Source: a virus
Taxonomy: Duplodnaviria; Heunggongvirae; Uroviricota; Caudoviricetes
DNA: 19,518 nucleotides
IMG/VR virus record: IMGVR_UViG_2541047681_000004
Reading direction: 5' to 3' (one strand)
Shown here: piece after piece, positions 1-19,318 of the stretch
Layout: every line of letters starts with the position of its first letter
How positions within the stretch are numbered: the first letter of the stretch is position 1
Made by a program: the position numbers and the translations under genes
Notes under the pieces: generated by a model
Told to the model about the DNA's origin: nothing
Database searches by the model: none
The model's input: the letters and a program-made list of their open reading frames with translations, nothing else

Positions 1-390
1 TTACTCTTTTTTCTCCGTATCTGCATCGGGTTCATCAGCAAATAGCTTGCCCTGCATCCGATCCAGTTCTTCTTTTCTTACCCGCTTAACCACGCTGTAG
101 ACCCACTGAAGCGAAACACCAAATTTGCGGGCCAGTTCGTGGTGGTTGCGTCCGTTAAACTCCCTGAAGATTTCCCGGTCGCGCTGACTGACCTTCCATA
201 CCATGCCCATCGGGAAATAAACGTTTTGCCCGCCCCAGACCTGCATCATTCGGTTCGCGACGGCCTGACCAATCTGGTCGGCAACTTCGGGCTCAATATC
301 AATAATCTCGCGAACGGTCTCAGAGGTATGCTGTGCCAGTTCCACCAGGAGTTCCGGCCCCTTACTTCGAAACTGATTCAGGTCGCTCAT
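1..390 (-). CDS. mor: Mor/C-family transcriptional activator (Mu middle/late activator-like), 129 aa
   Basis: Complete ORF with stop at window nt 1-3. Length and C-terminal pattern (GGQxVYxP...FNGRN..EL...GVS...VY) match my recollection of the Mu Mor family. Last gene of the leftward early operon. Confidence 0.75.
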   Translation of the reverse strand: MSDLNQFRSKGPELLVELAQHTSETVREIIDIEPEVADQIGQAVANRMMQVWGGQNVYFPMGMVWKVSQRDREIFREFNGRNHHELARKFGVSLQWVYSVVKRVRKEELDRMQGKLFADEPDADTEKKE

Positions 391-2791: not shown

Positions 2792-3322
2792 TTACTGCAC
2801 ATCCTGCTCAAAAGGAATTATTGAAAAATCCTCAATATCACTTTTTATGGTAATACCGGGAATATTTTTCACGGCGTCCTTTTCATTCAGGATAGCGTCT
2901 TTATTTATTTCCTCTTTTACACGAATAAAGCGCTCAAGCCCCAGACGTCTCAGTAATTCAATAACATTATCCGCCCCACGGATACTGACTGATGGCGGAC
3001 GGTTTCGTCACTGCACCTCGCCGGTGGTGAGGTTAGCGAACTTCACCTTCCCGTTGCCGGTCAGTTCATCACGGTGTGCCTCACACCATGTCTGAATACC
3101 GGACTGCAGTTCGGCCATGCGTTTTTTCAGGCTCTCGGTGAGCGGGGCATAACGTGCGGTGATATCGCCAATGGCGTCATTCATTTCTGTTTCAGCCCTG
3201 ACCAGTTCACGTTGTGCGTCACCGAGTAGTCTGATTCCCTCAATGACCTCTTCACGTGTCCCCGGCACCCAGAGTGCTGCTGCGGCCTTGATACGTTTTG
3301 CACCTTTTGTACTTTTTGCCAT
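2792..3322 (-). pseudogene. gam: Gam-like host-nuclease inhibitor, interrupted by an in-frame TGA at 3008-3010
   Basis: The N-terminal 104 codons (3011..3322) and the following 71 codons (2795..3007) are in the same frame, and both resemble Mu Gam as I recall it. They are separated only by one TGA; the downstream segment has no further stops until TAA at 2792-2794. Confidence 0.7.
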
Positions 3323-3349: not shown

Positions 3350-3619
3350 TTACCACAAAGATTCCGGCCACACGACGCGACAGCCGTGCAGTTCGAAAAC
3401 GCCCTGACGGAAATATCCCCTGTGGTCATGTCCGGTATACAGATAACAGGCCTTTCCCTGCTCAAGCATGCGCATGCAATGCGCACTCCGGGAAACGCGG
3501 ATGACAGGTTTGTTACCCCTGATGGTGATGCTCTGTACATCCGTGTTCGTCGCCTTAAGCGCCATAATGGCTGACTGCACTTTGCTGATTTGCTGGTTGA
3601 TACCTGTGGTGGATTTCAT
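3350..3619 (-). CDS. hypothetical early protein, 89 aa (occupies the position of Mu kil)
   Basis: ORF directly downstream of the B-like gene with a GGGG ribosome-binding site. No family recognised; the kil comparison is positional only. Confidence 0.45.
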   Translation of the reverse strand: MKSTTGINQQISKVQSAIMALKATNTDVQSITIRGNKPVIRVSRSAHCMRMLEQGKACYLYTGHDHRGYFRQGVFELHGCRVVWPESLW

Positions 3620-3621
3620 TA

Positions 3622-4788
3622 TTAAACCCCTTTGACAACGTCAGCGTTGACCTGTGGAACCCCGATTTCAGCGGCCAGATTCATGGCGGCTATTACCAGG
3701 TTACTGACGGCCAGCGGATACAGCAGGCTGACCATATTTTTACGGTGACTTCCCGGATTGCTCAGGCGGGCACGTATGGCATCCACTGCACCGGCGTCCA
3801 TAATGTCCGTCAGCTGTTTACCGGCCCGTTGCAGTTTGAACGTCAGAAATTCTTCAAGGTTATTGTCCAGAGGCAGAAGTTCGACCACCTCACAGCGCTG
3901 AACGACTTCACGGACTTCCATATTGCGTTCAGACAGTTTTGTCGCCAGTTCCGGCTGGCCAATCAGCACGATGGACAGCAGTTTTTTGAAACCGGACTCC
4001 AGCTCAAAAAAGCGTTTGAGGTGTTTCAGTGTCGGAATGGGCAGACTGTGGGCCTCCTCAATCACCAGAACGTGGCTGAACCCCGCCTGGCTGCTGTCTT
4101 TCAGGACGCGATGCAACTGGCGAAAACGGGCGTCCTGACTGCGTCTGATGCTTTCCAGTGGTGCGATGGTACTGATAATGGCTTCGGCAATCGCTGCTGC
4201 CTTCAGGGTTTTCCCTTTCACATCGTTGTCTTCCATAGCGATGATGTATGGCTCGATAACAATTACCGGCGCATTCTCGCGGTTGATACGTTCAGTCAGG
4301 TCGCGGCGCAGCGTGGATTTACCCGCACCGGACTCACCGATGACGGCCATAAACCCACCATGACGGGCTGTCTGGTACAGCGCCTCACGCACGTAGCGAA
4401 TATCCGGGGTGGTGAACACATCATCAGAACCCTGCATGGCTTCGTCGGCGAACGGGTCACGGAAAAGACCAAACGCTTTTTTGGTTGCTGGAAATAACAC
4501 CTGTTTTTTGAGTAACATATTCTCTTCCTCACTGAGGCTCGTTTTATCTGTGGTACCCGCTGTACGGGGCGTGGCCGCGCCCTGTACAGCATCAAAACTC
4601 TTCGTTGTATCAATCCCCTGACTTTCCAGCCAGGACGCAAGACGCCGGCGCACTTCTCCGGGGCTGGTGCGGGGCCACGCGTTATGATTCACAATCTGGG
4701 CCAGCGTGGCCTCAGAAACATCGACAGCTCTCGCCACCACCGCCTGTGGAATACGGGCCTCTTTCAGTTGCTGCTTCAGTACCAGCAT
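3622..4788 (-). CDS. Mu B-like transposition/target-DNA activator, AAA+ ATPase, ~388 aa
   Basis: Walker A GESGAGKST and Walker B-like VLVIEEAH, with an N-terminal HTH-like region. Preferred start is ATG 4788, which has a GAGGAGG site 5 nt upstream overlapping the transposase stop; the track ORF extends to 4827. Confidence 0.8.
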   Translation of the reverse strand: MLVLKQQLKEARIPQAVVARAVDVSEATLAQIVNHNAWPRTSPGEVRRRLASWLESQGIDTTKSFDAVQGAATPRTAGTTDKTSLSEEENMLLKKQVLFPATKKAFGLFRDPFADEAMQGSDDVFTTPDIRYVREALYQTARHGGFMAVIGESGAGKSTLRRDLTERINRENAPVIVIEPYIIAMEDNDVKGKTLKAAAIAEAIISTIAPLESIRRSQDARFRQLHRVLKDSSQAGFSHVLVIEEAHSLPIPTLKHLKRFFELESGFKKLLSIVLIGQPELATKLSERNMEVREVVQRCEVVELLPLDNNLEEFLTFKLQRAGKQLTDIMDAGAVDAIRARLSNPGSHRKNMVSLLYPLAVSNLVIAAMNLAAEIGVPQVNADVVKGV

Positions 4789-4798
4789 GTTTCCCTCC

Positions 4799-6568
4799 TC
4801 AGTTGCCGTTAACAATGCTGATAACACTGCTGCGGGCCGGTGTGGTCAGCGTGGCCATGACTTCATCCAGTGCGGCTTCCGGTACGCCGTCCGGGTACTG
4901 TGCCGTTAACTGGCGGTAATGTTCCGGCGTCCAGGTAAGGCCGTCGGCGCTGAACTTATCGCGCAGGGCTTTCGCGGCCTCCACATGAGTCATGGGACGT
5001 TGTTCAGTGCGCGGCCCGCGTACGTCAGAGGCCTGACCACGCTTCGGCATATAGGCCGGAAGTGTGGTGTCGTCGATATGTTTATACGGGTCAAGCCGCC
5101 CGCCGAACGGCAGCGCCTTCGCCTTGCGTGCGGCGGCTGCATCTGCGGCGTTGTCTGTACCGGTAACCAGCGCTTCGGTTTCTTTTGCCGCCATCTGTGC
5201 CGGGGTTTCCGGCAGGGCTTTGTAACTTTCGCCAAATACCGCCGCGCCTTCAGCAAAGCCAAACTCGTTCTTTCTGACCTCTTCGACCAGGAAGAACGTC
5301 TCGTGGCCGTCCTCACCGGTCAGAACCACCTGTGCCACATCGCTGCGCCATGGGTTACGGGTAATCATCAGTTTTTCACCAACCAGTACGCCCGGTACCG
5401 TTGATACGTCAAATTCAGTGCCCCGGAACGAGACACGAAGTTTTGGCGTGACTTTGCGGAGTTCTGGTGCCGCCACAGCCAGTTCACGACATACCTCAAC
5501 GGGAGGCGCTTTTTTCAGCTGCTCAGCAGTAATCTTCAGCCAGATATCCGTGCGGGTTTTACCGTGGCGGCTGTGAACAGCCGTGGCGTTAAAGTGGCTG
5601 CGCCATTTCGCGGCCAGCGCGTTGAGTTCTTCCAGACTGTGAACCGGCCGGAACTTCAGACCCGGCTCCAGCTTGCGTTCGATAATGTCCCGCGCCTTTT
5701 CCACCTGTCCGGTGGCGCGGGCGTTATGCGGCTTGTGCGCTATCAGGTCGATGCCCAGTGAGCGGCACATGTTTTTCGTCATACCCGCGGTGTTTGCCGA
5801 GCCGGGGTCGAGATAGAGTATTTTCGGCACGCCGTGCAGCACGTCTGCGCCGCCACGCTCCTGCATGGCGTTGATAAGCACAGAACACAGGTTCTCACCG
5901 GATTCCGCGCCCGTCACATACTCAACGTAAATCCAGCCGCTGGCATGGTCGGTAATCTCGTAACTCCACACGCGGTCACTGGCGATACGGGCAAGGTTAG
6001 CGGGCTTGTTCTTGTAGAACTTCGCGCTGTCCATCACCTGCAGCCCTTTATGTCCATTGCTCAGGTAGTAAAGCGTGCAGAGTGAGGCGTCAATCTGCCA
6101 GACATGATTGGGATGCAGACTGGCCACTTCGGTATGTGGTGCAGGGGCATCCAGTTGTTCCGGGTGCAGGCCATAGTTACGCAGAGCACGGCTGATGGCA
6201 TCTTCAGACAACGGGAAAAACTCACCGGTGGTTTCATCTGTTCTGCCTGCGGTGATAAAGCCGTTAGCCCGCAGGGTTTCCACTGCATCTGCGATGGAAT
6301 AGAGACGCTTACCGTTCTTGCGGGTGGCCTCACGCAGTGTGGCAGATATCAGCGCGGCTTCGTCGCGGGTCAGGGCGCTGCGCCCGGCATCGGCGCGTTT
6401 TTTGCGTTTATCAGTCACAGAGACCTCCTTCAGCCTGCGCAGCAGAGTGGCGCGGGACATGCCAAGTTCAGCACAGGCAGCGTCGTATATTGCACCGCGT
6501 TTACCATGCCCCGCGTCACGTGCCGCGCGGGCGACATAAACCAGTCGTTCAGTCAGGGCAGCATTCAT
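4799..6568 (-). CDS. DDE transposase with integrase-like core (transposable-phage TnpA), 589 aa
   Basis: N-terminal HTH-like region, a central core with Asp-containing motifs (WQIDAS, LYLDPGS) consistent with an rve/DDE fold, and a B-like ATPase gene immediately downstream as in Mu A-B. Confidence 0.85.
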   Translation of the reverse strand: MNAALTERLVYVARAARDAGHGKRGAIYDAACAELGMSRATLLRRLKEVSVTDKRKKRADAGRSALTRDEAALISATLREATRKNGKRLYSIADAVETLRANGFITAGRTDETTGEFFPLSEDAISRALRNYGLHPEQLDAPAPHTEVASLHPNHVWQIDASLCTLYYLSNGHKGLQVMDSAKFYKNKPANLARIASDRVWSYEITDHASGWIYVEYVTGAESGENLCSVLINAMQERGGADVLHGVPKILYLDPGSANTAGMTKNMCRSLGIDLIAHKPHNARATGQVEKARDIIERKLEPGLKFRPVHSLEELNALAAKWRSHFNATAVHSRHGKTRTDIWLKITAEQLKKAPPVEVCRELAVAAPELRKVTPKLRVSFRGTEFDVSTVPGVLVGEKLMITRNPWRSDVAQVVLTGEDGHETFFLVEEVRKNEFGFAEGAAVFGESYKALPETPAQMAAKETEALVTGTDNAADAAAARKAKALPFGGRLDPYKHIDDTTLPAYMPKRGQASDVRGPRTEQRPMTHVEAAKALRDKFSADGLTWTPEHYRQLTAQYPDGVPEAALDEVMATLTTPARSSVISIVNGN

Positions 6569-6571
6569 TGG

Positions 6572-7483
6572 TTATGCCTCCAGCCCGTTAATCTGTGGCG
6601 TCGGCTCAGTCAGCCATGAAGGCGCTGCATTGCCTGTTGGCTCGTCCGGCAGGTCAAATGTGGAGCGCAGGCTACGCGCTGTGCTTTCCAGTTGACAGAC
6701 CAGGCCTGCCATGAAGTCTCTGGGGGTATCAATCATGTTTTCAGCACAATATGCGCACAGTGTCTCAAAAGCGCTGGACAGTCGAACGGCGATGGCAGAT
6801 TCCGCCTCAACCGCTAATGCTGTCACTTCCGCCCGCAGCTTCTTAACCTCCTCATCAGGCTCAGGCAGCTGAATACGGGATTTCTTTTCCAGTCTGGTAG
6901 AGAGAGAATCAATTTTTTCATTTTTATCGGCGAGTACGCGCTGTTGTGCTGCGTTGGTTTCGCGCGCTTCGCGCAGGGCCTGGCGAAGTTCGCGTACTGA
7001 CATGCGATCAACGTCGTCAAGCGTCAGGCCGGCAACAGTGCCACCATCAGCCAGTTCGGCAAGGTTTTCATCGTCTTCCGTCATTAACTCGAATAATTTG
7101 GCTTTTCCTAAAAGCGCAAACGTCTGCGCTTTTGACTCAAGTTGTGGTGATAAATATTTTATTGATGCCTGCATCATTACCTGTGCAGTACGCTTTGACA
7201 TTGATAATTCAGACTCGACAATATTTATGAAATCACCATATGGTTCATTTTCTTTCAGTATTATCAGTCGTTTACCTGCCTCTAGCATGGCCTCAGCACT
7301 TTGTGCCATATAAAAGCGTGCTTCGTGAACAATGCGATCACGTTCATAAGGCAGACCATCGCCGAACTGCTGCATGATCTCCACGCGGTGTTGTGCCATG
7401 GTATTAAGACTGATGTTGAGATCATCAGACAGCGGCACCTCAGCATTCAGATCAGTGGACATTGGTGATTTGGTACGTCCCAT
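6572..7483 (-). CDS. conserved early protein, 303 aa, coiled-coil rich
   Basis: Long ORF immediately upstream of the transposase, with AAGGAG 7 nt upstream. No confident family; possibly one of the DUF-type early proteins of transposable phages. Confidence 0.55.
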   Translation of the reverse strand: MGRTKSPMSTDLNAEVPLSDDLNISLNTMAQHRVEIMQQFGDGLPYERDRIVHEARFYMAQSAEAMLEAGKRLIILKENEPYGDFINIVESELSMSKRTAQVMMQASIKYLSPQLESKAQTFALLGKAKLFELMTEDDENLAELADGGTVAGLTLDDVDRMSVRELRQALREARETNAAQQRVLADKNEKIDSLSTRLEKKSRIQLPEPDEEVKKLRAEVTALAVEAESAIAVRLSSAFETLCAYCAENMIDTPRDFMAGLVCQLESTARSLRSTFDLPDEPTGNAAPSWLTEPTPQINGLEA

Positions 7484-7493
7484 TGATTACTCC

Positions 7494-7802
7494 TTATAAA
7501 CGACTACCTGAAATGACACGTTGGTTGATTTCGTTAATACGATCCTGCGCTCGTGCCATCTCGTTACTGTGAGCCATGGCGATCTGCAGTAACTGGATGC
7601 CCGGTGCAAAACGTCCATTCTCCAGTTTCAGGGCCAGCCCTTCTTCAATGAGGGTGTTGAGTGCCCGATTAATGTTTGCTGGTGACTCGTGCAGTGCTGC
7701 CGCCAGTTCACCGTTGGAGATACCGTTCAGAGCGTGGCCACGTAACGCCTTAAGAACACGCAAAATACGGGTACCTGCGCTTGATGTATTTGGTTTATTC
7801 AT
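7494..7802 (-). CDS. winged-helix DNA-binding protein (IclR N-terminal HTH-like), 102 aa
   Basis: RILRVLKAL...GISNGELAAAL...SPANINRALNTLIEEG resembles the IclR-type HTH. Second gene of the early operon. Confidence 0.45.
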   Translation of the reverse strand: MNKPNTSSAGTRILRVLKALRGHALNGISNGELAAALHESPANINRALNTLIEEGLALKLENGRFAPGIQLLQIAMAHSNEMARAQDRINEINQRVISGSRL

Positions 7803-9993: not shown

Positions 9994-10761
9994 CTACTCT
10001 AAATTACTTACAATAAGTTCGCGCCGTAGTGTTCCCTTTCCTGCAAGACTGTAGTTGACCTTCACACAGTGAATGTTCAGACCGTTAAAAACCTGCCGCA
10101 TTTCCGGGATATCGTTGACCGATATAATCATCTTTCCTCTGATGCACCGGGCCAGCTCTGCCAGCCGCGAGTAGTTCCCTTCAGGAAAATCCACACCATA
10201 GCCTTCCGTACCCAGGTACGGTGGGTCGCAGTAGAACAGCGTGTGCGGACGATCATAACGCTCAATGCACTGTTGCCAGTCCATGTGTTCTATGACTGTT
10301 CTGGAAAGCCGCAGGTGTGCCGCTGACAGTTCTTCTTCAATACGCAGCAGGTTGAAGCGTGGCGGGGATGTGGTGGAGGTACCGAAGCTGTGCTCTGCCA
10401 CCTTGCCGCCAAACGCCTGCTTCTGAAGGTAGTAAAACCGTGCCGCACGCTGGATATCCGTCAGTGTTTCTTCCGGGGTGATCTGCAGCCATTTGTAGAT
10501 CTGACGGCTGACCAGCGCCCATTTGAACTGGCGGACAAATTCTTCCAGGTGATGCTTTACCACCCGGTACAGATTCACCAGTTCACCGTTGATATCATTG
10601 ATGACTTCGATCTTGCCGGGTGTCTTAAGAAAATAGAGCGCTGCTGCCCCACAAAACGGCTCCACATAACATTCATGCGCCGGAAACAGCGGCAGGATGT
10701 GTTTTGCAAGGCGGCGTTTGCCACCAATCCATGGAACGATGGGTAATGTCTGCATTTTCAT
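9994..10761 (-). CDS. DNA N6-adenine methyltransferase (Dam-like), 255 aa
   Basis: Motif I-like FCGAAA and catalytic DPPY (FYCDPPYLGTEGYG) in the order seen in Dam-family enzymes. No restriction endonuclease partner visible. Confidence 0.8.
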   Translation of the reverse strand: MKMQTLPIVPWIGGKRRLAKHILPLFPAHECYVEPFCGAAALYFLKTPGKIEVINDINGELVNLYRVVKHHLEEFVRQFKWALVSRQIYKWLQITPEETLTDIQRAARFYYLQKQAFGGKVAEHSFGTSTTSPPRFNLLRIEEELSAAHLRLSRTVIEHMDWQQCIERYDRPHTLFYCDPPYLGTEGYGVDFPEGNYSRLAELARCIRGKMIISVNDIPEMRQVFNGLNIHCVKVNYSLAGKGTLRRELIVSNLE

Positions 10762-10830
10762 AATCTGTAAGCCTTTTACAATTATAAAAAATATGGCAGG
10801 CTAGTCTGGTCTCGCGAGACTGACTGAACC
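10762..10830 (-). promoter_or_regulatory. putative dam promoter with upstream 12-bp palindrome
   Basis: On the minus strand a consensus TATAAT (RC of 10781-10786) lies ~20 nt upstream of the dam ATG. Perfect palindrome GTCTCGCGAGAC at 10809-10820 just upstream. Confidence 0.3.
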
Positions 10831-10866
10831 TTGGTCGGCTCACAGCGCATTCCTGTGGGGCGATGG

Positions 10867-10894
10867 CCAGCCCGGTGTTCGGGTACCGGGCTGG
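10867..10894 (+). other. GC-rich hairpin (9-bp stem, 10-nt loop)
   Basis: CCAGCCCGG-tgttcgggta-CCGGGCTGG, followed on the plus strand by TCGTTCTTTC. Lies in the 190-bp gap between dam and the 71-aa ORF; could be a terminator-like or regulatory structure. Confidence 0.3.
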
Positions 10895-12403: not shown

Positions 12404-12754
12404 ATGAAAAACCTGAAAAAATTCATTCCCCCTGTTAAAAAACCTCGCCTCAGCGGCTGGCTGCTGACCTCAGTGCTGTTGCTGGGCATCATCGCTCTGG
12501 TCTCGCCACAGCAGTTGCCTGTTGTGATCTACAAGCTGGCACTCATCACGCTGGCAGCAGTGCTGGGGTACTGGCTTGACCGTTCGCTCTTCCCCAAAGC
12601 CCGTCCCGGTCAGTACCTGAAACATGAAGACAGGCTGATGGCTGAAGGGCGTTTCCCGGTGCAGACCGGCCTTCACCTTGTATTTTCTGCTGCGTTAATC
12701 CGCCGTGCACTGATTGTTGCAGCTGTCTGTCTGGCTGTTGCGATGGGGCTTTAA
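12404..12754 (+). CDS. putative holin, ~116 aa, 3 hydrophobic helices
   Basis: AAGGAG 6 nt upstream of ATG 12404 (track ORF begins at GTG 12371). Three hydrophobic segments, positioned immediately upstream of the endolysin. Confidence 0.5.
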   Translation: MKNLKKFIPPVKKPRLSGWLLTSVLLLGIIALVSPQQLPVVIYKLALITLAAVLGYWLDRSLFPKARPGQYLKHEDRLMAEGRFPVQTGLHLVFSAALIRRALIVAAVCLAVAMGL

Positions 12755-12756
12755 TC

Positions 12757-13497
12757 ATGAACTGGCCGCAGATCACCTGGATTGTATGCATGTCCCTGAA
12801 ACTGGCTTTCGAAGCCTTTCGGGTCTTCATCAGAACCGAACGCCTGTCAGTCCGCGCCGGGACCTTTCTGGTTCATATGGCATGGGTATTCTTTGTCGCA
12901 ATGTTGCTCTGGTGTGGCGGCTTTTTCAGCCAGGCATGCGCAGCGCAGCCTCCGCAGGTTGCGCTGCAGTATCGCGATGATGTGATCCGTAATGCCCGGC
13001 TTGAATGGGGACTGTCTGCGCCGGTGGCCGACTTCGCCGCGCAGCTGCATCAGGAAAGCGGCTGGCGACCTGATGCGATCTCGCCGGCTGGCGCTCAGGG
13101 ACTGGCGCAGTTCATGCCTGCCACTGCCGACTGGATAAGCCAGTTGATACCGATGCTGAGCAGTCGTGAGCCGTTTAATCCGGCATGGGCTATCCGGGCG
13201 CTGGTCAGCTATGACCGCTGGCTGTGGCAGCGTGTCAGCGCCGCCAGTGACTGCGAGCGTATGGCCATGACGCTGTCGGGCTATAACGGTGGTCTGGGCT
13301 GGGTACAGCGGGACAGACGGCTGGCCTCACAGCAGGGGCTGGACAGCACCCGCTGGTTCGGACATGTCGCCACGGTGAATGCCGGACGCAATGCGGCCAG
13401 CTGGCGGGAGAACCGCCATTATCCGCAGCGCATCCTGCGCGAACTGGCACCGCGATATCTCACATGGGGAGGCAGCAGTTGTGTGGCATCTGGTTAA
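12757..13497 (+). CDS. lytic transglycosylase endolysin (SLT domain) with N-terminal hydrophobic anchor/signal, 246 aa
   Basis: SLT signature QESGWRP ... AQGLAQFMPATA. N-terminal hydrophobic stretch VHMAWVFFVAMLLWCGGFF, consistent with a signal-anchor-release or secreted endolysin. Start adjoins the holin stop. Confidence 0.8.
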   Translation: MNWPQITWIVCMSLKLAFEAFRVFIRTERLSVRAGTFLVHMAWVFFVAMLLWCGGFFSQACAAQPPQVALQYRDDVIRNARLEWGLSAPVADFAAQLHQESGWRPDAISPAGAQGLAQFMPATADWISQLIPMLSSREPFNPAWAIRALVSYDRWLWQRVSAASDCERMAMTLSGYNGGLGWVQRDRRLASQQGLDSTRWFGHVATVNAGRNAASWRENRHYPQRILRELAPRYLTWGGSSCVASG

Positions 13498-14131
13498 AAA
13501 GCTGCCGTGGCGCGGCATTCTGCTGGCCATTCTTATCAATGCCTTTCTGGTCGGCCTGTATGCCATGGGATACAGAAGTGGTCATGACTCTGCAAAGCGT
13601 GACGGTGATACCGCGCTCAGTCAGTTGCAGTCAGCGTTCGACGCGTACAAAACGGAGCAGGCAACGCTTGAGAATGCTGCGCTGCGGGCCTGGGCCAGAC
13701 GGTATCAGGAGCAGGTGGCCGCCGGGCAGCGGGCTGAAGCCGGTTATCTTGAGCAGATTGCTCAACTGGAGAGCCGGAATAAACAACTACAGGGGCAAAT
13801 TAACGATGTCACACAGCGCTGGATTGATGAAAAAGGTAAGAGCCATCCCATTGAGTGCGTGTTTACTCGCGGTTTCGTGCGCCAGTACAACGCCGCACTC
13901 GGATATGACAACGCATCCGTCGACACCGGTCATTCAGACTCAGTTGCCGCCGCTGGCACCCGCTCTGGCACAGCGACCGGGCAACCTGAAACCACTGACA
14001 CCCGGTTACGCGATTCGGGTGTCTCCCAGCGTGACGTTCTCGCCAACATCATCGACAACGCAGGACAATGTCGTCGCTGGCGGAACCAGATAAACGCGTT
14101 ACTGGATGAACGGGAAGGATTACAGAAATGA
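13481..14131 (+). CDS. i-spanin (Rz-like), ~216 aa
   Basis: GTG 13481 with GGGGAGG 8 nt upstream. N-terminal TM (WRGILLAILINAFLVGLYAMGY) followed by coiled-coil sequence. The track ORF start at 13379 lies inside the endolysin. Confidence 0.55.
   Translation: MWHLVKKLPWRGILLAILINAFLVGLYAMGYRSGHDSAKRDGDTALSQLQSAFDAYKTEQATLENAALRAWARRYQEQVAAGQRAEAGYLEQIAQLESRNKQLQGQINDVTQRWIDEKGKSHPIECVFTRGFVRQYNAALGYDNASVDTGHSDSVAAAGTRSGTATGQPETTDTRLRDSGVSQRDVLANIIDNAGQCRRWRNQINALLDEREGLQK
13827..14093 (+). CDS. o-spanin (Rz1-like lipoprotein), 88 aa, nested in the +1 frame of the i-spanin gene
   Basis: MKKVRAIPLSACLLAVSCAS signal/lipobox-like N-terminus followed by a Pro/Thr/Ser-rich body, nested entirely within the Rz-like gene. 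Alternative start ATG 13806. Confidence 0.55.
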   Translation: MKKVRAIPLSACLLAVSCASTTPHSDMTTHPSTPVIQTQLPPLAPALAQRPGNLKPLTPGYAIRVSPSVTFSPTSSTTQDNVVAGGTR

Positions 14132-14765: not shown

Positions 14766-15268
14766 TGGCCAGACGCAGCACAATAGAAAAGCTGCCGGAA
14801 GATGTGCGCCGCTGGCTTGAACGGGCGCTGACTGAATCCGGCTTCAGCGGGTATAACGAGTTGGAGTCCCTGCTGCGTGAGCGGGGGTACGTCATCAGCA
14901 AATCCGCTATCCATCGCTATGGACAGAAGATTGAGCGCCGCTATGGTGCTATCCGTGCGGCAACAGAAGCGGCCCGCATGCTGACCGAAGGCGCAGCAGA
15001 CGATCAGGATGCGCGTTCGGAGGCTGTGATAGCCCTTATTCAGACCGAGCTGTTCGAGAGTATTGTCCAGTTGCAGGAGGCGGAAGAAGGCGAAGTCGAT
15101 CCTAAAGAACGCGTGGCCCTGCTGTCGAAGGTGGCGAAGAATGTGGCTACGCTGTCCCGCGCGTCCGTCAACCTCAAAAAGTTCCAGTCTGAAGTACGGG
15201 CCAGAGCGCAGCAGGCAGCCAGCAACGCCGAGAAAATTGCCCGTAAGGGGGGTATGAGACGACAATAA
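14765..15268 (+). CDS. small terminase subunit-like protein (Mu gp27/DUF3486-like), 167 aa
   Basis: Size, helical/charged composition and position immediately upstream of terL (before the IS) fit Mu gp27-type proteins. Coupled start (TAATG). Confidence 0.55.
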   Translation: MARRSTIEKLPEDVRRWLERALTESGFSGYNELESLLRERGYVISKSAIHRYGQKIERRYGAIRAATEAARMLTEGAADDQDARSEAVIALIQTELFESIVQLQEAEEGEVDPKERVALLSKVAKNVATLSRASVNLKKFQSEVRARAQQAASNAEKIARKGGMRRQ

Positions 15269-15345
15269 CTCAGTCCGCCTGGCGCCGATTATTCTGGCCG
15301 GTTTTGTAACCTGAGTGTCATTTACATGATCCAACAGGAAATGGC

Positions 15346-16845
15346 GTGACGCTCAATACTTCTCAGGTCAGTTACTATATGACTCAGCGTAAGAAAGGTA
15401 TAACTCAGCATATCTCGGCCATGAAGGCTGGTATCTCAGTCCGTTCTGGTCGTCGGATCGAAAAAGGAGAGTGGGCAAAAAACAGTGTTCGGCACTGGCG
15501 CACACGCAAAGATCCTCTGGAAGCTGTGTGGGACAGCATGCTTGTTCCTCTGTTGAAAGAGAGGCCGGCTCTGACACCAACAACTCTGCTGGAGATGCTA
15601 CAGGATAAATATCCCGGCCAGTACCCCAACAGCCTTCGAAGAACAATGCAACGGCGGGTCCGCGAATGGAAGCTACAGTATGGTGCAGAGCAGGAGGTCA
15701 TGTTCCGCCAGCGACATCAGCCCGGTCTGCGAGGTCTGTCGGACTTTACTGAACTGAAAGGTGTAGTTGTCACCATCGCCGGTAAGTTGTTGGCGCATAA
15801 GTTGTATCACTTCCGTCTGGAATGGAGCCACTGGAGCTGGATGCGGGTTGTGCTGGGTGGTGAGAGCTTCTCTGCTCTGGCTGAAGGTCTGCAGGAAGCC
15901 CTCGGACAACTGGGCGGAGTGCCGGTAGAACATAAAACGGACAGCCTGAGGGCAGCATGGAAACAACAGGGCGAAGATGGACGCCGCGAGCTGACTGAGC
16001 GTTATGCTGCTCTCTGTCAGCACTACGGAATGCAGGGCGTACACAATAATGCCGGTCGGGGCCACGAAAATGGCTCGGTTGAAAGTGCCCACGGACATCT
16101 GAAAAGGCGTATCTGTCAGGCGCTGATACTGCGGGGCAGTAACGACTTCAGCACCATAGAAGAATATCAGGCCTTCATCACTCAGCAGGTTATGCGGCAC
16201 AACCGTAACAATCAGGATCTGGTCAAGGAAGAACGTCTTCATCTGAAACCGCTGCCGCTTCGTCGCAGTGCTGACTATGATGAGCTGACTGTGAGGGTTA
16301 GCCGCAGCAGTACCATCAATGTGAAGCACGTCGTCTACAGCGTACCTTCCCGGCTTGTAGGTCAACTGTTACGGGTCCGGTTATGGGACGATCGTCTGAG
16401 CTGTTACGTTGGCAGCAGCGAGGTCATGAGCTGCCCACGTGTCAGACCAGAAAAAGGGAAGACGCGGGCCCGTCGTATCGACTTCCGACATGTGATCGAC
16501 AGTCTGGCAAAAAAGCCCGGTGCGTTCTGCCATGCAACGCTGAGAAATGACATCCTGCCAGACGATGAATGGCGGAGGCTGTGGCGTCGCTTATGTAATC
16601 ATCTGGAACCCGACATGGCAGGCAGGCTGATGGTACATGCTCTGAAACTGGCTGCAGGATACGACGATATCTCAGTCGTGGCAAAAGGTATGGAGCAGAT
16701 GCTGAATACCCCGGGAAACGTGGATCTGCACCGGCTGATGCGCTTCCTGGGTATAAAGGAAAAGGCGTTGCCGGTAGTCAATGTGAAACAGCATAACCTG
16801 AGCAGTTATGAGCAACTACTGCGTGGCAAGGGAGGTTCGCAGTGA
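15346..16845 (+). CDS. istA: IS21-family transposase IstA, 499 aa from GTG 15346
   Basis: N-terminal HTH (ISAMKAGISVRSGRR), integrase-type catalytic core, conserved HENGSVESAHGHLKRR segment. AGGAA 5 nt upstream of GTG 15346; alternative ATG 15379. Confidence 0.85.
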   Translation: MTLNTSQVSYYMTQRKKGITQHISAMKAGISVRSGRRIEKGEWAKNSVRHWRTRKDPLEAVWDSMLVPLLKERPALTPTTLLEMLQDKYPGQYPNSLRRTMQRRVREWKLQYGAEQEVMFRQRHQPGLRGLSDFTELKGVVVTIAGKLLAHKLYHFRLEWSHWSWMRVVLGGESFSALAEGLQEALGQLGGVPVEHKTDSLRAAWKQQGEDGRRELTERYAALCQHYGMQGVHNNAGRGHENGSVESAHGHLKRRICQALILRGSNDFSTIEEYQAFITQQVMRHNRNNQDLVKEERLHLKPLPLRRSADYDELTVRVSRSSTINVKHVVYSVPSRLVGQLLRVRLWDDRLSCYVGSSEVMSCPRVRPEKGKTRARRIDFRHVIDSLAKKPGAFCHATLRNDILPDDEWRRLWRRLCNHLEPDMAGRLMVHALKLAAGYDDISVVAKGMEQMLNTPGNVDLHRLMRFLGIKEKALPVVNVKQHNLSSYEQLLRGKGGSQ

Positions 16846-17597
16846 GCAATATCCATCACCTTGAACGCAGCCTGCGTAAACTACGCCTGACACGAGTTGG
16901 AGCTGAATGGCACGCTCTGGAAAAACGAGCACTGGCAGAAGGCTGGACACCATCGCGCTATCTTCTGACGCTATGCAATGAAGAACTCCTGTGGCGCGAG
17001 AGTGAAAAACTGCGTCGTTATAAAAAGGAGGCCCGGTTGCCAGTTGCCAAAACGCTAAGCGAATACGACTTCAGTCAGGTGCCGGAACTGAATGGAGCTC
17101 AGTTCCGGCAACTCTGTGAAACGACAGACTGGGTTGATGCAGGAGAAAACGTTCTGCTGTTCGGAGCCAGCGGGTTGGGGAAAAGCCATCTGGCGGCAGC
17201 GATCGTGGATGGCGTAGTAGGCCAGGGCTACCGGGCCCGGTTCTACAGCGCAGGAGAGTTGTTGCAGGAACTACGTAAAGCCAGAGCGCAGTTGAAACTG
17301 AATGAGCTGCTACTGAAACTGGATCGCTACCGGGTGATAGTGGTGGATGATCTTGGCTATGTCAAACGCGACAGCGCCGAAACGGGAGTACTGTTCGAGT
17401 TAATAGCGCATCGCTATGAACGTGGGAGCCTGGTGATAACCAGTAACCATCCGTTCAGCATGTGGGGCAGCATCTTCGTGGATGAGACTATGGCGGTGGC
17501 GGCGGCAGACCGGCTGATCCATCACGGATATATGTTCGAACTGAAAGGTGAAAGCTACAGGAAAAAGACAGCGAAGGCAGTAACAAGCGCGACTTGA
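16842..17597 (+). CDS. istB: IS21-family helper ATPase IstB, 251 aa
   Basis: Walker A GASGLGKSH, Walker B VIVVDDLGY and the IstB-like tail HHGYMFELKGESYR. GTG start overlaps the istA stop. Confidence 0.9.
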   Translation: MSNIHHLERSLRKLRLTRVGAEWHALEKRALAEGWTPSRYLLTLCNEELLWRESEKLRRYKKEARLPVAKTLSEYDFSQVPELNGAQFRQLCETTDWVDAGENVLLFGASGLGKSHLAAAIVDGVVGQGYRARFYSAGELLQELRKARAQLKLNELLLKLDRYRVIVVDDLGYVKRDSAETGVLFELIAHRYERGSLVITSNHPFSMWGSIFVDETMAVAAADRLIHHGYMFELKGESYRKKTAKAVTSAT

Positions 17598-17722
17598 TGT
17601 CGCACTGAAGGGTGCGGCCAGTATAGTTGGCGCGAGTCGGCAAAACTAGTTGACGTCTAATAGGGGGGACTGTCAAGCGACGCAGTACAGGCGCTTCGTC
17701 GCGAGATTCTGGGGATTGCCAC

Positions 17723-19318
17723 ATGACAAAATCATCCGGAGTGATTTTAAACGCCGCTGGCGGTGGCCCCGAAGGGATGAGTCCCATGGACGGGAGGAAT
17801 AACCTTGCTCCCGTTTTGCCTGATACCTCGGCGCTGGATGCTCCTCCCGTTCTGTTGCCTTACCAGCAGCGCTGGGTGGCAGACACCTCTCCGCTTAAGG
17901 TGATAGAAAAGAGCCGTCGTACCGGTATTACATGGGCTGAGGCATCCGATAACGTACTGACCGCCGCCTCTTCTGCGCCAGCAGGCGGGATGAATGTGTA
18001 TTACATCGCTTATAACCAGGACATGACCGTCGAATACATTCAGGCGTGTGCGATGTGGGCACGGGCATTCAACTATGCGGCCAGTGAAATTGAAGAAGGA
18101 TTCTGGGAAGAGGACGACGACGACAAACACATCAGGACTTACACCATCAAATTTCCTGACTCCGGCTTTCGTATTGTTGCGCTCTCCAGCCGCCCGTCTA
18201 ACCTGCGTGGCCGTCAGGGTATTATTGTTATCGACGAAGCGGCGTTCCATGAGCAACTGGACGAACTGCTGAAAGCGGCGCTGGCGATGCTTATCTGGGG
18301 GGGAAAGGTACGCGTTATCTCCACCCATGACGGTGACGACAATCCGTTCAATACGCTTATCGGGGATATCCGTGCCGGACGTCAGGGAGGCAGCATACAT
18401 CGCATCACTTTCCGGGAAGCCGTATCTGAGGGGCTGTTCCGGCGCGTCTGTCTGCGCACCGGGAAGGAATGGTCGGAGGCATCCGAGCAGGCCTGGATGG
18501 CATCGGTGTACAAATTCTACGGTGCCGGCGCATCCGAAGAGCTTGACTGTATTCCGGCCAACGGTGGCGGTGCCTGGCTGTCCCGTGCCCTGATAGAGTC
18601 CCGCATGTCCGCTGATACGCCGGTATTGCGTCTGACCTGCAAGGAAGGTTATGAACTGCTGTCTGATGAGGTTCGCTTCCGCGAGACGCAGGACTGGCTT
18701 GATGAGTATCTGAAACCCTTGCTGGAGGCACTCCCCACTGATGCCCGCTCTTTCCTGGGGCGCGACTTTGGCCGTAGCGGTGATTTGTCGGTGGACTATC
18801 CCCTGCTGCAGGAGAAGAACCTGGTACGACGCGTGCCATTCGTACTGGAGCTGCGTAACGTGCCGTTCAGACAGCAGGAGCAAATCACCTGGTATCTGAT
18901 GGATGGCCTGCCCGGTCTGCTGGGTGCAGCGTTTGATGCCCGTGGTAATGGTGCCTATCTGGCTGAATACGCCATGCAGCGCTACGGCTCCGGCCGGGTT
19001 CAGCAGGTGATGCCAACCGAAGGCTGGTACCGGGAGCATATGCCTCCGGTCAAAGCTGCACTGGAAGACGGTAACCTGGTGGACTTACCAAAGGATGAAG
19101 ACACACTGGATGACCTGCGGGCCGTTCAGGTGGTGAACGGTGTCCCCCGCGTACCGGAGCAACGCTCAAAAGCAAAGGCTGACGGTGGTAAACGCCACGG
19201 GGATTCAGCCATCGCACTGGCGCTGGCGTATTTCGCCAGCCGTGAAATTAACAAAGGGCCGGTGAAGGCAAGCTCACGCCGTCGTCGTCAGGCGGCCCGT
19301 ATGCTGGAGGGATTCTGA
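17723..19318 (+). CDS. large terminase subunit (Mu gp28-like), 531 aa
   Basis: Large acidic protein immediately followed by a portal-like gene; its motifs resemble Mu-type TerL as I recall them. Separated from terS by the IS21 element. The N-terminal ~30 residues could be affected by the insertion. Confidence 0.7.
   Translation: MTKSSGVILNAAGGGPEGMSPMDGRNNLAPVLPDTSALDAPPVLLPYQQRWVADTSPLKVIEKSRRTGITWAEASDNVLTAASSAPAGGMNVYYIAYNQDMTVEYIQACAMWARAFNYAASEIEEGFWEEDDDDKHIRTYTIKFPDSGFRIVALSSRPSNLRGRQGIIVIDEAAFHEQLDELLKAALAMLIWGGKVRVISTHDGDDNPFNTLIGDIRAGRQGGSIHRITFREAVSEGLFRRVCLRTGKEWSEASEQAWMASVYKFYGAGASEELDCIPANGGGAWLSRALIESRMSADTPVLRLTCKEGYELLSDEVRFRETQDWLDEYLKPLLEALPTDARSFLGRDFGRSGDLSVDYPLLQEKNLVRRVPFVLELRNVPFRQQEQITWYLMDGLPGLLGAAFDARGNGAYLAEYAMQRYGSGRVQQVMPTEGWYREHMPPVKAALEDGNLVDLPKDEDTLDDLRAVQVVNGVPRVPEQRSKAKADGGKRHGDSAIALALAYFASREINKGPVKASSRRRRQAARMLEGF

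What the first reader, a model, noticed from the sequence alone, without database searches (positions are those of the whole stretch)
2792..3322. gam interrupted by a single in-frame TGA with intact homology on both sides
The Gam-like reading frame continues in the same frame on both sides of one TGA (3008-3010), and the downstream 71 codons still look like Gam C-terminus (…FIRVKEEINKDAIL…GITIKSDIEDFSIIPFEQ). In Mu Gam as I recall it this position is a Trp, so a TGG-to-TGA change is likely. Possibilities are a recent nonsense mutation (prophage decay), a sequencing error, or low-level readthrough.
Basis: partly seen in the sequence, partly recalled or inferred. Interest (0 to 1): 0.55.

Follow-up and report, generated by a model that had tools for sequence, protein, structure and literature searches.

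The report
Nonsense mutation in prophage gam gene
A Mu-like prophage of E. coli carries a real single-base change that turns a conserved tryptophan codon of its DNA-end-protecting gam gene into a stop codon. This is an ordinary, already annotated pseudogene allele, although the phage carrying it has still managed to move to a new chromosomal site.

Summary
Close relatives have TGG there, and Trp105 is invariant in 41 intact Gam homologues, so this is a TGG-to-TGA nonsense change. It is not a sequencing error. Five complete E. coli genomes from five countries have the identical allele, which RefSeq annotates as a pseudogene with an "internal stop", against 615 with TGG. The exact 104-aa product is recorded on 620 public contigs.

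It is also not just a mark of a dead prophage. The same 38,199-bp prophage (2 SNPs) sits at two different chromosomal sites, each with its own 6-bp target duplication. The allele also occurs at two further sites in prophages with different repressors. I found no SECIS and no unusual RNA structure, and the stop is not conserved, so programmed recoding is not supported. Low-level tRNA-Trp readthrough at this UGA-C would restore wild-type Gam, but I could not test that.

In this window the prophage also carries an ISEc10 insertion in its small terminase gene. Verdict: an ordinary, known nonsense allele of a probably dispensable accessory gene. Low interest.

The parts
3011..3322 (-). gam codons 1-104. 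This is the open reading frame actually terminated in this allele (product 104 aa, 11.4 kDa).
   Evidence: ORF 3008..3322; Pfam PF07352 profile positions 1-81, E = 3.5e-19; mass. In the AlphaFold model of an intact 98%-identical homologue it covers the long helix 23-82, helix 84-87, strand 95-98 and part of strand 101-107.
3008..3010 (-). In-frame TGA at codon 105, which is TGG (Trp) in relatives. The next base is C, giving a UGA-C context.
   Evidence: G-to-A at gene nt 315 relative to E-1246 and PhiKM. Trp invariant in alignments A1 and A2. A 55-mer centred on this base is found in 5 complete E. coli genomes, and the TGG version in 615.
2795..3007 (-). gam codons 106-176, the 71 codons stranded behind the stop. 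They are still intact.
   Evidence: Pfam PF07352 positions 83-148, E = 3.5e-14. Identical in protein sequence to intact Gam. No additional stop or frameshift in any TGA-bearing copy examined. The only in-frame ATG/GTG/TTG codons are at 151 and 175, so re-initiation giving a useful C-terminal fragment is unlikely.
2792..2794 (-). Natural TAA stop codon of gam.
   Evidence: The RefSeq pseudogene feature in CP095086 spans the corresponding 531 bases.
3350..3619 (-). 89-aa early gene directly upstream of gam (WP_000843446.1, 'HI_1482 family protein'). It is part of the same leftward early operon.
3622..4788 (-). MuB-like AAA+ ATPase gene (annotated 'ExeA family protein', 388 aa).
   Evidence: Pfam AAA_22.
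4799..6568 (-). Transposase gene (rve integrase catalytic domain, 589 aa). It places gam in the early operon of a transposable phage.

Best explanation
This is a genuine TGG-to-TGA nonsense polymorphism at the invariant Trp105 of gam. Gam is the Ku-like protein that binds double-strand DNA ends and blocks RecBCD, here encoded by a BcepMu-like transposable prophage of E. coli. Translation mostly ends at codon 105 and gives an 11.4-kDa fragment: the long N-terminal helix and about one and a half beta strands, without the rest of the domain. That fragment is most likely non-functional (inferred). Full-length Gam can arise only when Trp-tRNA(Trp) misreads the UGA. That event would restore the exact wild-type protein, probably at a few percent or less of normal dosage (inferred from published K-12 values, not tested here). 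The phage tolerates the defect because gam is probably an accessory early gene, as in Mu. The allele has been inherited vertically in a lysogen lineage with the prophage next to nagE, found in four countries. It has also passed through at least one complete transfer to a new host site. It is a tolerated loss-of-function or strongly hypomorphic allele, not a recoding device.
For: Shown:
- The stop and the intact downstream frame.
- G in relatives versus A here.
- Trp invariant in 6 phage Gams at 41-98% identity, including Mu, and in 35 further homologues.
- The family is 172-176 aa long, so it does not normally end here.
- RefSeq annotates the locus as a pseudogene with 'internal stop' in all five complete genomes that carry it.
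- 5 complete genomes have TGA versus 615 with TGG.
- The exact 104-aa product is on 620 contigs.
- In four of the five complete genomes the prophage lies next to nagE (China, USA, Japan, UK). In M22546 (Argentina) the same 38,199-bp prophage, 2 SNPs apart, splits an amidohydrolase gene near sthA. Each site has its own 6-bp target duplication, CTTCTC versus GTCAGA. M22546 has only one copy of this gam.
- Two more host flanks, in prophages with different repressor genes, carry the allele.
- The AlphaFold model places codon 105 inside strand 101-107, with three strands and the C-terminal helices after it.

From the literature:
- Mu Gam binds DNA ends and blocks RecBCD (PMC3809393).
- Mu's semi-essential region, in which Mu gam lies by my own knowledge, can be deleted with phage still recovered (PMC3325207).
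- UGA readthrough by Trp-tRNA(Trp) against RF2 is about 2% at 37 C and 4% at 25 C in a K-12 reporter (PMC10570021).
Against: No expression or protein data exist for this allele. Non-function of the 104-aa fragment is inferred from a monomer model of only moderate confidence (pTM 0.46), and that model found no significant structural match in the PDB. Dispensability of gam is taken from Mu, which is 61% identical in Gam and differs in genome layout, not from this phage. Transfer to new sites could have been helped by a co-resident gam+ relative, since some genomes hold 2-3 copies of the family. For the two mosaic prophages (L010, L012), gene conversion rather than whole-phage movement could have spread the allele. 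The readthrough percentages come from K-12, whose RF2 is unusually weak at UGA (my own knowledge), so clinical isolates may read through much less.
Confidence: 0.8

Rival explanations
1. Adaptive loss or attenuation. Reduced Gam is favoured because Gam blocks RecBCD, and RecBCD-dependent repair is needed to recover Mu lysogens. A gam-down phage would therefore kill fewer infected cells and leave more lysogens, which would explain why the allele is common.
For: recA and recB/recBCD mutants are defective in Mu lysogen recovery. Deleting the semi-essential region raised lysogen recovery and host viability to 100% for a MuBam phage (PMC3325207). Prolonged Gam production lowers E. coli viability (PMC3809393). 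The allele is on 620 contigs and at four or more integration sites. Other independent gam lesions exist: TAG at codon 104 in L019, a 1-nt deletion in L031, and IS1 insertions at two positions in CP196276 and CP076697.
Against: Only 5 of 620 complete genomes with this gam carry it. 22 of the 24 contigs read are at the single nagE site, so its abundance is mostly clonal inheritance. The benefit of deleting the semi-essential region in Mu is attributed there to kil or unknown ORFs, not shown for gam. The other lesions are singletons, and TAG104 is absent from complete genomes. Trp105 and the whole protein are strongly conserved across the family, which indicates purifying selection in general.
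Confidence: 0.12
2. Functional leaky stop. The UGA-C acts as a dosage attenuator, and the few percent of readthrough product (true wild-type Gam, because Trp is inserted) is what the phage uses. This would work like the UGA readthrough that makes the Q-beta A1 protein.
For: The mutated codon is a Trp codon, and UGA is the one stop that tRNA-Trp misreads (PMC10570021). The following base is C, the weakest UGA context in E. coli according to Poole, Brown and Tate 1995 (my own knowledge; that paper could not be opened). The downstream 71 codons are intact in every TGA copy, across two 3' haplotypes. The phage remained mobile.
Against: The stop is not conserved: 615 of 620 complete genomes, all 15 in-frame IMG/VR copies at this codon, and all 41 intact homologues have Trp. 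The RNA around the stop is not unusually structured (z = +0.63) and there is no Rfam match. Intact downstream codons carry no weight, because the roughly 1.5-kb block around the mutation (gene positions -1057 to +408) is nearly identical in the TGA copies compared and in PhiKM, with two variable sites apart from the mutation itself. There has been no time for decay.
Confidence: 0.06
3. Sequencing or assembly error. The true sequence would be TGG.
For: None beyond the prior that single-base errors occur.
Against: The 55-mer with the A is identical in five complete genomes from China, USA, Japan, Argentina and the UK. It is also present in additional NCBI and ENA assemblies. The exact 104-aa product is on 620 contigs from several sources. 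The site is not a homopolymer.
Confidence: 0.01
4. Recoding of UGA as selenocysteine, or an alternative genetic code.
For: A short CCGCC...GGCGG hairpin can form downstream of the UGA.
Against: There is no SECIS or any other Rfam family at gathering threshold in the window, and nothing near the stop at E up to 10. The fold energy is no better than shuffled sequence. The same downstream sequence is present in TGG alleles. The host is E. coli, which uses the standard code, and neighbouring genes end normally.
Confidence: 0.01

Closest known systems
Bacteriophage Mu Gam (Pfam PF07352 Phage_Mu_Gam; Ku-like double-strand-end binding protein; solved relative PDB 2p2u)
   Same: 61% identical to Mu Gam over the repaired frame, with the same length class of 172-176 aa. 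Pfam match E = 4e-41 over the whole profile. Sequence match to 2p2u, 'Host-nuclease inhibitor protein Gam, putative', E = 4.4e-8. Same position in the early operon, downstream of the transposase and the MuB-like ATPase.
   Different: The frame is broken at the invariant Trp105. The host phage is BcepMu-like: the nearest phage record, PhiKM, is classified in Bcepmuvirus. Its early operon runs to the prophage end, and its target duplications are 6 bp.
Intact allele of the same gene: WP_001140133.1 (E. coli E-1246) and XRL29421.1 (Escherichia phage PhiKM)
   Same: 98.9-99.1% identical DNA. PhiKM differs from the TGA prophage L012 at a single base, the G/A of codon 105, across 2,466 aligned bases.
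   Different: TGG instead of TGA. These are annotated as a normal 176-aa protein.
Near-cognate UGA readthrough by tRNA-Trp in E. coli (for example the Q-beta coat/A1 readthrough, from my own knowledge, and reporter studies in PMC10570021)
   Same: A UGA followed by C, where Trp insertion is the expected misreading. Here Trp is also the ancestral residue, so the readthrough product would be wild type.
   Different: The stop is not conserved, no stimulatory element was found, and no evidence shows the extended product is needed. Here readthrough would be incidental, not programmed.

Membership tests
Phage_Mu_Gam (PF07352) host-nuclease inhibitor family | Significant match to the family profile over its full length | tested here: met
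   Repaired frame: 140.9 bits against a cut-off of 28.3, profile positions 1-148 of 149. The two halves match positions 1-81 and 83-148 separately.
Phage_Mu_Gam (PF07352) host-nuclease inhibitor family | Uninterrupted ORF of about 170-176 codons | tested here: not met
   In-frame TGA at codon 105. Homologues are 172-176 aa. By descent it is a gam gene, but as encoded it is a pseudogene or nonsense allele.
Phage_Mu_Gam (PF07352) host-nuclease inhibitor family | Invariant Trp in the TGEVQW-R-RPPSV motif | tested here: not met
   W105 is invariant in A1 (6 intact sequences) and A2 (35 sequences). Here the codon is a stop.
Phage_Mu_Gam (PF07352) host-nuclease inhibitor family | Location in the early operon of a transposable (Mu-like) phage | tested here: met
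   Transposase, MuB-like ATPase, an 89-aa ORF, gam and then on to mor, all on one strand. The prophage has TG...CA ends and 6-bp target duplications.
Phage_Mu_Gam (PF07352) host-nuclease inhibitor family | Binds double-strand DNA ends and blocks RecBCD | not testable with these tools
   Needs the lambda red gam plaque assay or a UV-sensitivity assay, as in PMC3809393.
Programmed stop-codon readthrough | The stop codon is conserved among relatives while the downstream frame is kept | tested here: not met
   5 TGA versus 615 TGG among complete E. coli genomes. Trp in all 41 intact homologues aligned.
Programmed stop-codon readthrough | Leaky stop context or a stimulatory RNA element | tested here: inconclusive
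   The context is UGA-C, reputedly weak in E. coli (my own knowledge). There is no unusual structure (z = +0.63) and no Rfam element.
Programmed stop-codon readthrough | Extended product is made and required | not testable with these tools
   Needs a western blot, mass spectrometry or a reporter assay.
Selenocysteine UGA recoding | Bacterial SECIS hairpin immediately 3' of the UGA | tested here: not met
   No Rfam hit, and the fold is not better than shuffles.
Pseudogene of a decaying (cryptic) prophage | Further disabling lesions in the same prophage | tested here: inconclusive
   In this window, yes: ISEc10 sits in the small terminase gene. In the five complete genomes gam is the only gene flagged for an internal stop. 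The other flagged feature is a partial tail-fibre segment beside a recombinase gene, which I read as an invertible-segment cassette (my own inference).
Pseudogene of a decaying (cryptic) prophage | Loss of mobility | tested here: not met
   The same prophage (2 SNPs in 38,199 bp) is at two sites with separate 6-bp target duplications. Four distinct host flanks were found in all.
Pseudogene of a decaying (cryptic) prophage | Substitutions accumulating downstream of the stop | tested here: not met
   No private changes in codons 106-176 of any TGA copy. The only differences are a haplotype shared with TGG alleles.

The most novel reading that the evidence does not exclude
The UGA-C at Trp105 is a selected 'dimmer switch'. 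tRNA-Trp readthrough yields a few percent of true wild-type Gam. That would be enough to protect phage ends but too little to poison RecBCD-dependent repair of the integration intermediate, raising lysogenisation and host survival. This would explain why one nonsense allele, and not an assortment of others, has spread to several sites and mosaic backgrounds.
Probability: 0.06. Interest if true: 0.45.

Novelty: already known. Interest (0 to 1): 0.15.

Why it matters
It matters little beyond correct annotation. The locus should be labelled a gam pseudogene or nonsense allele, not two genes and not a recoding site. The modest point of interest is natural evidence that a BcepMu-like phage can complete at least one transfer and integration with gam interrupted. 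That agrees with gam being an accessory function in Mu. Gam antagonises the RecBCD pathway that Mu needs to establish lysogens, so the allele would be a convenient natural starting point for asking whether less Gam favours lysogeny.

Tried and rejected
- **Structure search:** Foldseek of the AlphaFold model against the PDB gave no match with E <= 0.001. The monomer model (pTM 0.46) has one straight 60-residue helix and is not good enough for fold matching. I used only its secondary-structure order.
- **Structure prediction of the repaired protein:** I modelled a 98%-identical intact homologue instead.
- **IMG/VR scan for the TGA 29-mer:** 0 hits. A shared gam 30-mer found 16 contigs, none with TGA. 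That is consistent with a frequency near 1% and otherwise uninformative.
- **SECIS or other RNA element:** none.
- **Re-initiation after the stop:** no in-frame start before codon 151.
- **Selection test on the stranded 71 codons:** no power, because the block around the mutation is almost invariant among all copies.
- **Poole et al. 1995:** the paper could not be opened, so the weakness of UGA-C in E. coli rests on my own knowledge.
- **TAG104 allele:** a second nonsense allele seen in one IMG/VR contig is absent from complete genomes, so recurrent nonsense at this spot is not a general pattern.
- **Two literature searches** failed on term length and were rerun.

Full report
**1. What is in the sequence**

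The feature lies on the minus strand. Translating 3322 down to 2780 gives a single frame, MAKSTKG...NLTTGEVQ*RNRPPSVSIRGADNVIELL...DFSIIPFEQDVQ*. The other two frames are littered with stops. The codons around the break are GTG CAG TGA CGA AAC. The TGA is therefore codon 105 at window 3008-3010, followed by 71 open codons and the natural TAA at 2792-2794.

The downstream similarity is real:
- The 71-residue tail alone matches Pfam PF07352 (Phage_Mu_Gam) at E = 3.5e-14, profile positions 83-148.
- The 104-residue head matches positions 1-81 at E = 3.5e-19.
- The frame with Trp restored matches 1-148 of 149 at E = 4e-41.

**2. Which residue is expected**

The same gene is present in 624 of 5,426 complete E. 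coli genomes. The nearest phage record is Escherichia phage PhiKM, classified in Bcepmuvirus. In E. coli E-1246 and in PhiKM the gene is an uninterrupted 176-codon ORF, annotated as a Gam-family protein. Gene nucleotide 315 is G there (TGG, Trp) where the window has A.

Trp occupies this column in Gam of Mu, Pseudomonas phage MP42, Haemophilus phage SuMu, Rhizobium phage RR1-B and Rhodobacter phage RcWaterboi, which are 41-66% identical. W105 is also invariant in 35 further homologues, which are 55-77% identical to the first sequence of that alignment. Family members are 172-176 aa long, so Gam does not normally end here. This is a TGG-to-TGA transition.

**3. Not an error**

I used a 55-mer with the variant base at position 28. 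With megablast's 28-base word, such a query can only find copies that share that base.
- The TGA version is found in exactly five complete genomes.
- The TGG version is found in 615.

The five carriers come from China, the USA, Japan, Argentina and the UK. RefSeq marks the locus as a pseudogene with 'internal stop' in each of them. The exact 104-aa product is recorded on 620 contigs from NCBI, JGI, ENA and Logan, for example EOV11421.1 from E. coli KTE195. So the allele is real, heritable and already in the databases.

**4. The allele has moved**

The prophage in CP095086 is about 38 kb. Its early operon runs mor <- ... <- gam <- MuB-like ATPase <- transposase, and it has a full set of lysis, head and tail genes. 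Apart from gam, the only flagged feature is a partial tail-fibre segment beside a recombinase gene, which I read as an invertible-segment cassette (my own inference).

In four of the five complete genomes the prophage lies next to nagE. In M22546 it splits an amidohydrolase gene between fabR and sthA. The two copies are 38,199 bp long and differ at 2 positions. Both start TGATTAGAC and end GCGCATCA. They are flanked by different 6-bp duplications, CTTCTC and GTCAGA. M22546 has only this one copy of the gene. The whole phage, already carrying the TGA, therefore integrated independently at least twice.

Looking up contigs that encode the 104-aa product gave 24 contigs. Of these, 22 are at nagE. 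The others are at two further sites, one next to an aldo-keto reductase and hrpA, the other next to an M48 peptidase, cmk and rpsA. Those prophages have different repressor genes and a different set of small early genes. All show the same prophage end followed by different host DNA.

Two 3' haplotypes of gam carry the TGA. The switch between them lies between gene nucleotides 408 and 444. One of the mosaic prophages (L012) differs from PhiKM at only the codon-105 base across 2,466 aligned bases. A single origin followed by recombination is the simplest reading. For these two mosaics, gene conversion between co-resident relatives is also possible.

The abundance of the allele is mostly clonal (the nagE lineage), but it is not confined to a dead element.

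**5. What the mutation does (inference)**

An AlphaFold model of a 98%-identical intact homologue (mean pLDDT 80, pTM 0.46) has these elements in order:
- helix 23-82 and helix 84-87;
- strands 95-98, 101-107 and 111-114;
- helix 117-126 and helices 141-151;
- strands 157-160 and 164-170.

The stop falls inside the second strand. It removes three strands and the C-terminal helices, leaving an 11.4-kDa fragment instead of 19.7 kDa. The sequence relative with a solved structure, PDB 2p2u, aligns across residues 35-156, which spans the break. The model itself found no significant PDB match, so I use it only for the order of elements. I infer that the fragment cannot form the end-binding domain.

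There is no in-frame start codon after the stop before codon 151. No Rfam family, SECIS included, matches. The local RNA folds no better than shuffled sequence (z = +0.63).

The only route to full-length protein is near-cognate decoding of UGA by Trp-tRNA(Trp). In E. coli K-12 reporters this runs at about 2% at 37 C and 4% at 25 C, in competition with RF2 (PMC10570021). Because the ancestral residue is Trp, that product would be wild-type Gam. The following C is reputedly the weakest UGA context in E. coli (Poole, Brown and Tate 1995). This rests on my own knowledge, because the paper could not be opened. None of this was tested here. K-12 values are probably an upper bound for natural isolates, again from my own knowledge of the K-12 RF2 variant.

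**6. Why the phage tolerates it**

Mu Gam binds double-strand ends and blocks RecBCD, and prolonged production lowers host viability (PMC3809393). In Mu, by my own knowledge, gam lies in the semi-essential early region. That region can be deleted with phage still recovered, and deleting it raised lysogen recovery and host survival for a MuBam phage. recA and recB/recBCD hosts are defective in Mu lysogen recovery (PMC3325207). A gam-null or gam-low phage is therefore expected to be viable and might even lysogenise better. The second point is speculative here, since the Mu effect was not assigned to gam.

Other gam lesions do occur in this prophage family:
- CAG-to-TAG at codon 104 in one IMG/VR contig, and a 1-nt deletion in another;
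- IS1 insertions at two different positions in two complete genomes.

All of these are rare, and TAG104 is absent from complete genomes. With Trp105 and the whole protein strongly conserved, the family as a whole is under purifying selection.

**7. This particular copy**

The window matches none of the five complete genomes exactly.
- It has 47 substitutions and one single-base gap, mostly in two clusters (10,696-10,885 and 12,489-13,639).
- It has a 2,409-bp insertion at 15,253-17,661 with a 7-bp duplication, AGGGGGG.

The insertion is ISEc10 (IS21 family; istA 15,346-16,845 and istB 16,842-17,597). It is 100% identical to copies in CFT073 and other strains. It sits near the 3' end of the small terminase gene (PHROG 426, DUF3486) and separates the late genes upstream from the gene at 17,723-19,318, which I take to be the large terminase. 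No complete genome has this insertion at this site. So this copy shows a second, independent sign of decay.

**8. Comparison and verdict**

By descent this is gam of a BcepMu-like transposable phage. As encoded it fails two defining features of the family, an uninterrupted ORF and the invariant Trp. It is properly a nonsense allele or pseudogene, which is exactly how RefSeq labels it.

It does not meet the tests for programmed readthrough: the stop is not conserved and no stimulatory element was found. It does not meet the test for selenocysteine recoding either.

Sequencing error is excluded, and 'prophage decay' has to be qualified by the evidence that the allele travelled with a mobile phage. 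It is already known and ordinary, so interest is low. The one reading with some novelty is a selected leaky stop that tunes Gam dosage. My evidence does not exclude it, but nothing here requires it.

Noticed in passing
window 15253-17661: A 2,409-bp ISEc10 element (IS21 family; istA 15346-16845, istB 16842-17597) with a 7-bp target duplication AGGGGGG. It is inserted near the 3' end of the prophage small terminase gene (PHROG 426 / DUF3486). That gene's ORF is cut to 167 aa from 181. The element is 100% identical to copies in CFT073. No complete E. coli genome has it at this site.
   Followed up: yes
window 10696-10885 and 12489-13639: Relative to the five complete genomes with the same gam allele, the window's 47 substitutions fall mostly into two tight clusters. 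That pattern suggests recombination patches rather than clock-like divergence. A single-base indel at about 10785 lies between genes.
   Followed up: partly
L009 (NZ_CP133927.1, strain M22546) 2493-40691 versus L004 (NZ_CP095086.1) 4244-42442: The same 38,199-bp prophage (2 SNPs) is at two chromosomal sites, with 6-bp target duplications GTCAGA and CTTCTC and ends TGATTAGAC...GCGCATCA. This documents recent transposition or lysogenisation by this BcepMu-like phage.
   Followed up: yes
L019 (IMGVR_UViG_2551306053_000005), gam codon 104; L031 (IMGVR_UViG_642979344_000011), near gam codon 26: These are independent gam lesions in related prophages. L019 has CAG-to-TAG at codon 104, next to the codon studied here but on a different haplotype. 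L031 has a 1-nt deletion (GAGG to GAG). TAG104 is not found in complete E. coli genomes, so either lesion could be a sequencing error in an old assembly.
   Followed up: partly
L035 (NZ_CP196276.1) and L036 (NZ_CP076697.1): IS1 is inserted in the 3' part of gam at two different positions in two complete genomes, from Australia and the UK. One leaves a 102-nt C-terminal remnant that is annotated as a partial pseudogene.
   Followed up: partly
L010 and L012 (loci), about 500-2750 and 7100-7630: Prophages carrying the same gam allele have different repressor genes (HTH_31, HTH_3 or Phage_CI_repr types). Their small early genes also differ (98 + 71 aa versus 101 aa). This shows modular mosaicism around a nearly invariant block running from the MuB-like ATPase gene to gam.
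   Followed up: no
window 1-390: The window begins at the stop codon of the mor gene (minus strand). The prophage end and host junction, about 160 bp further out in the complete genomes, are therefore not in the window. The integration site of this copy cannot be determined.
   Followed up: no
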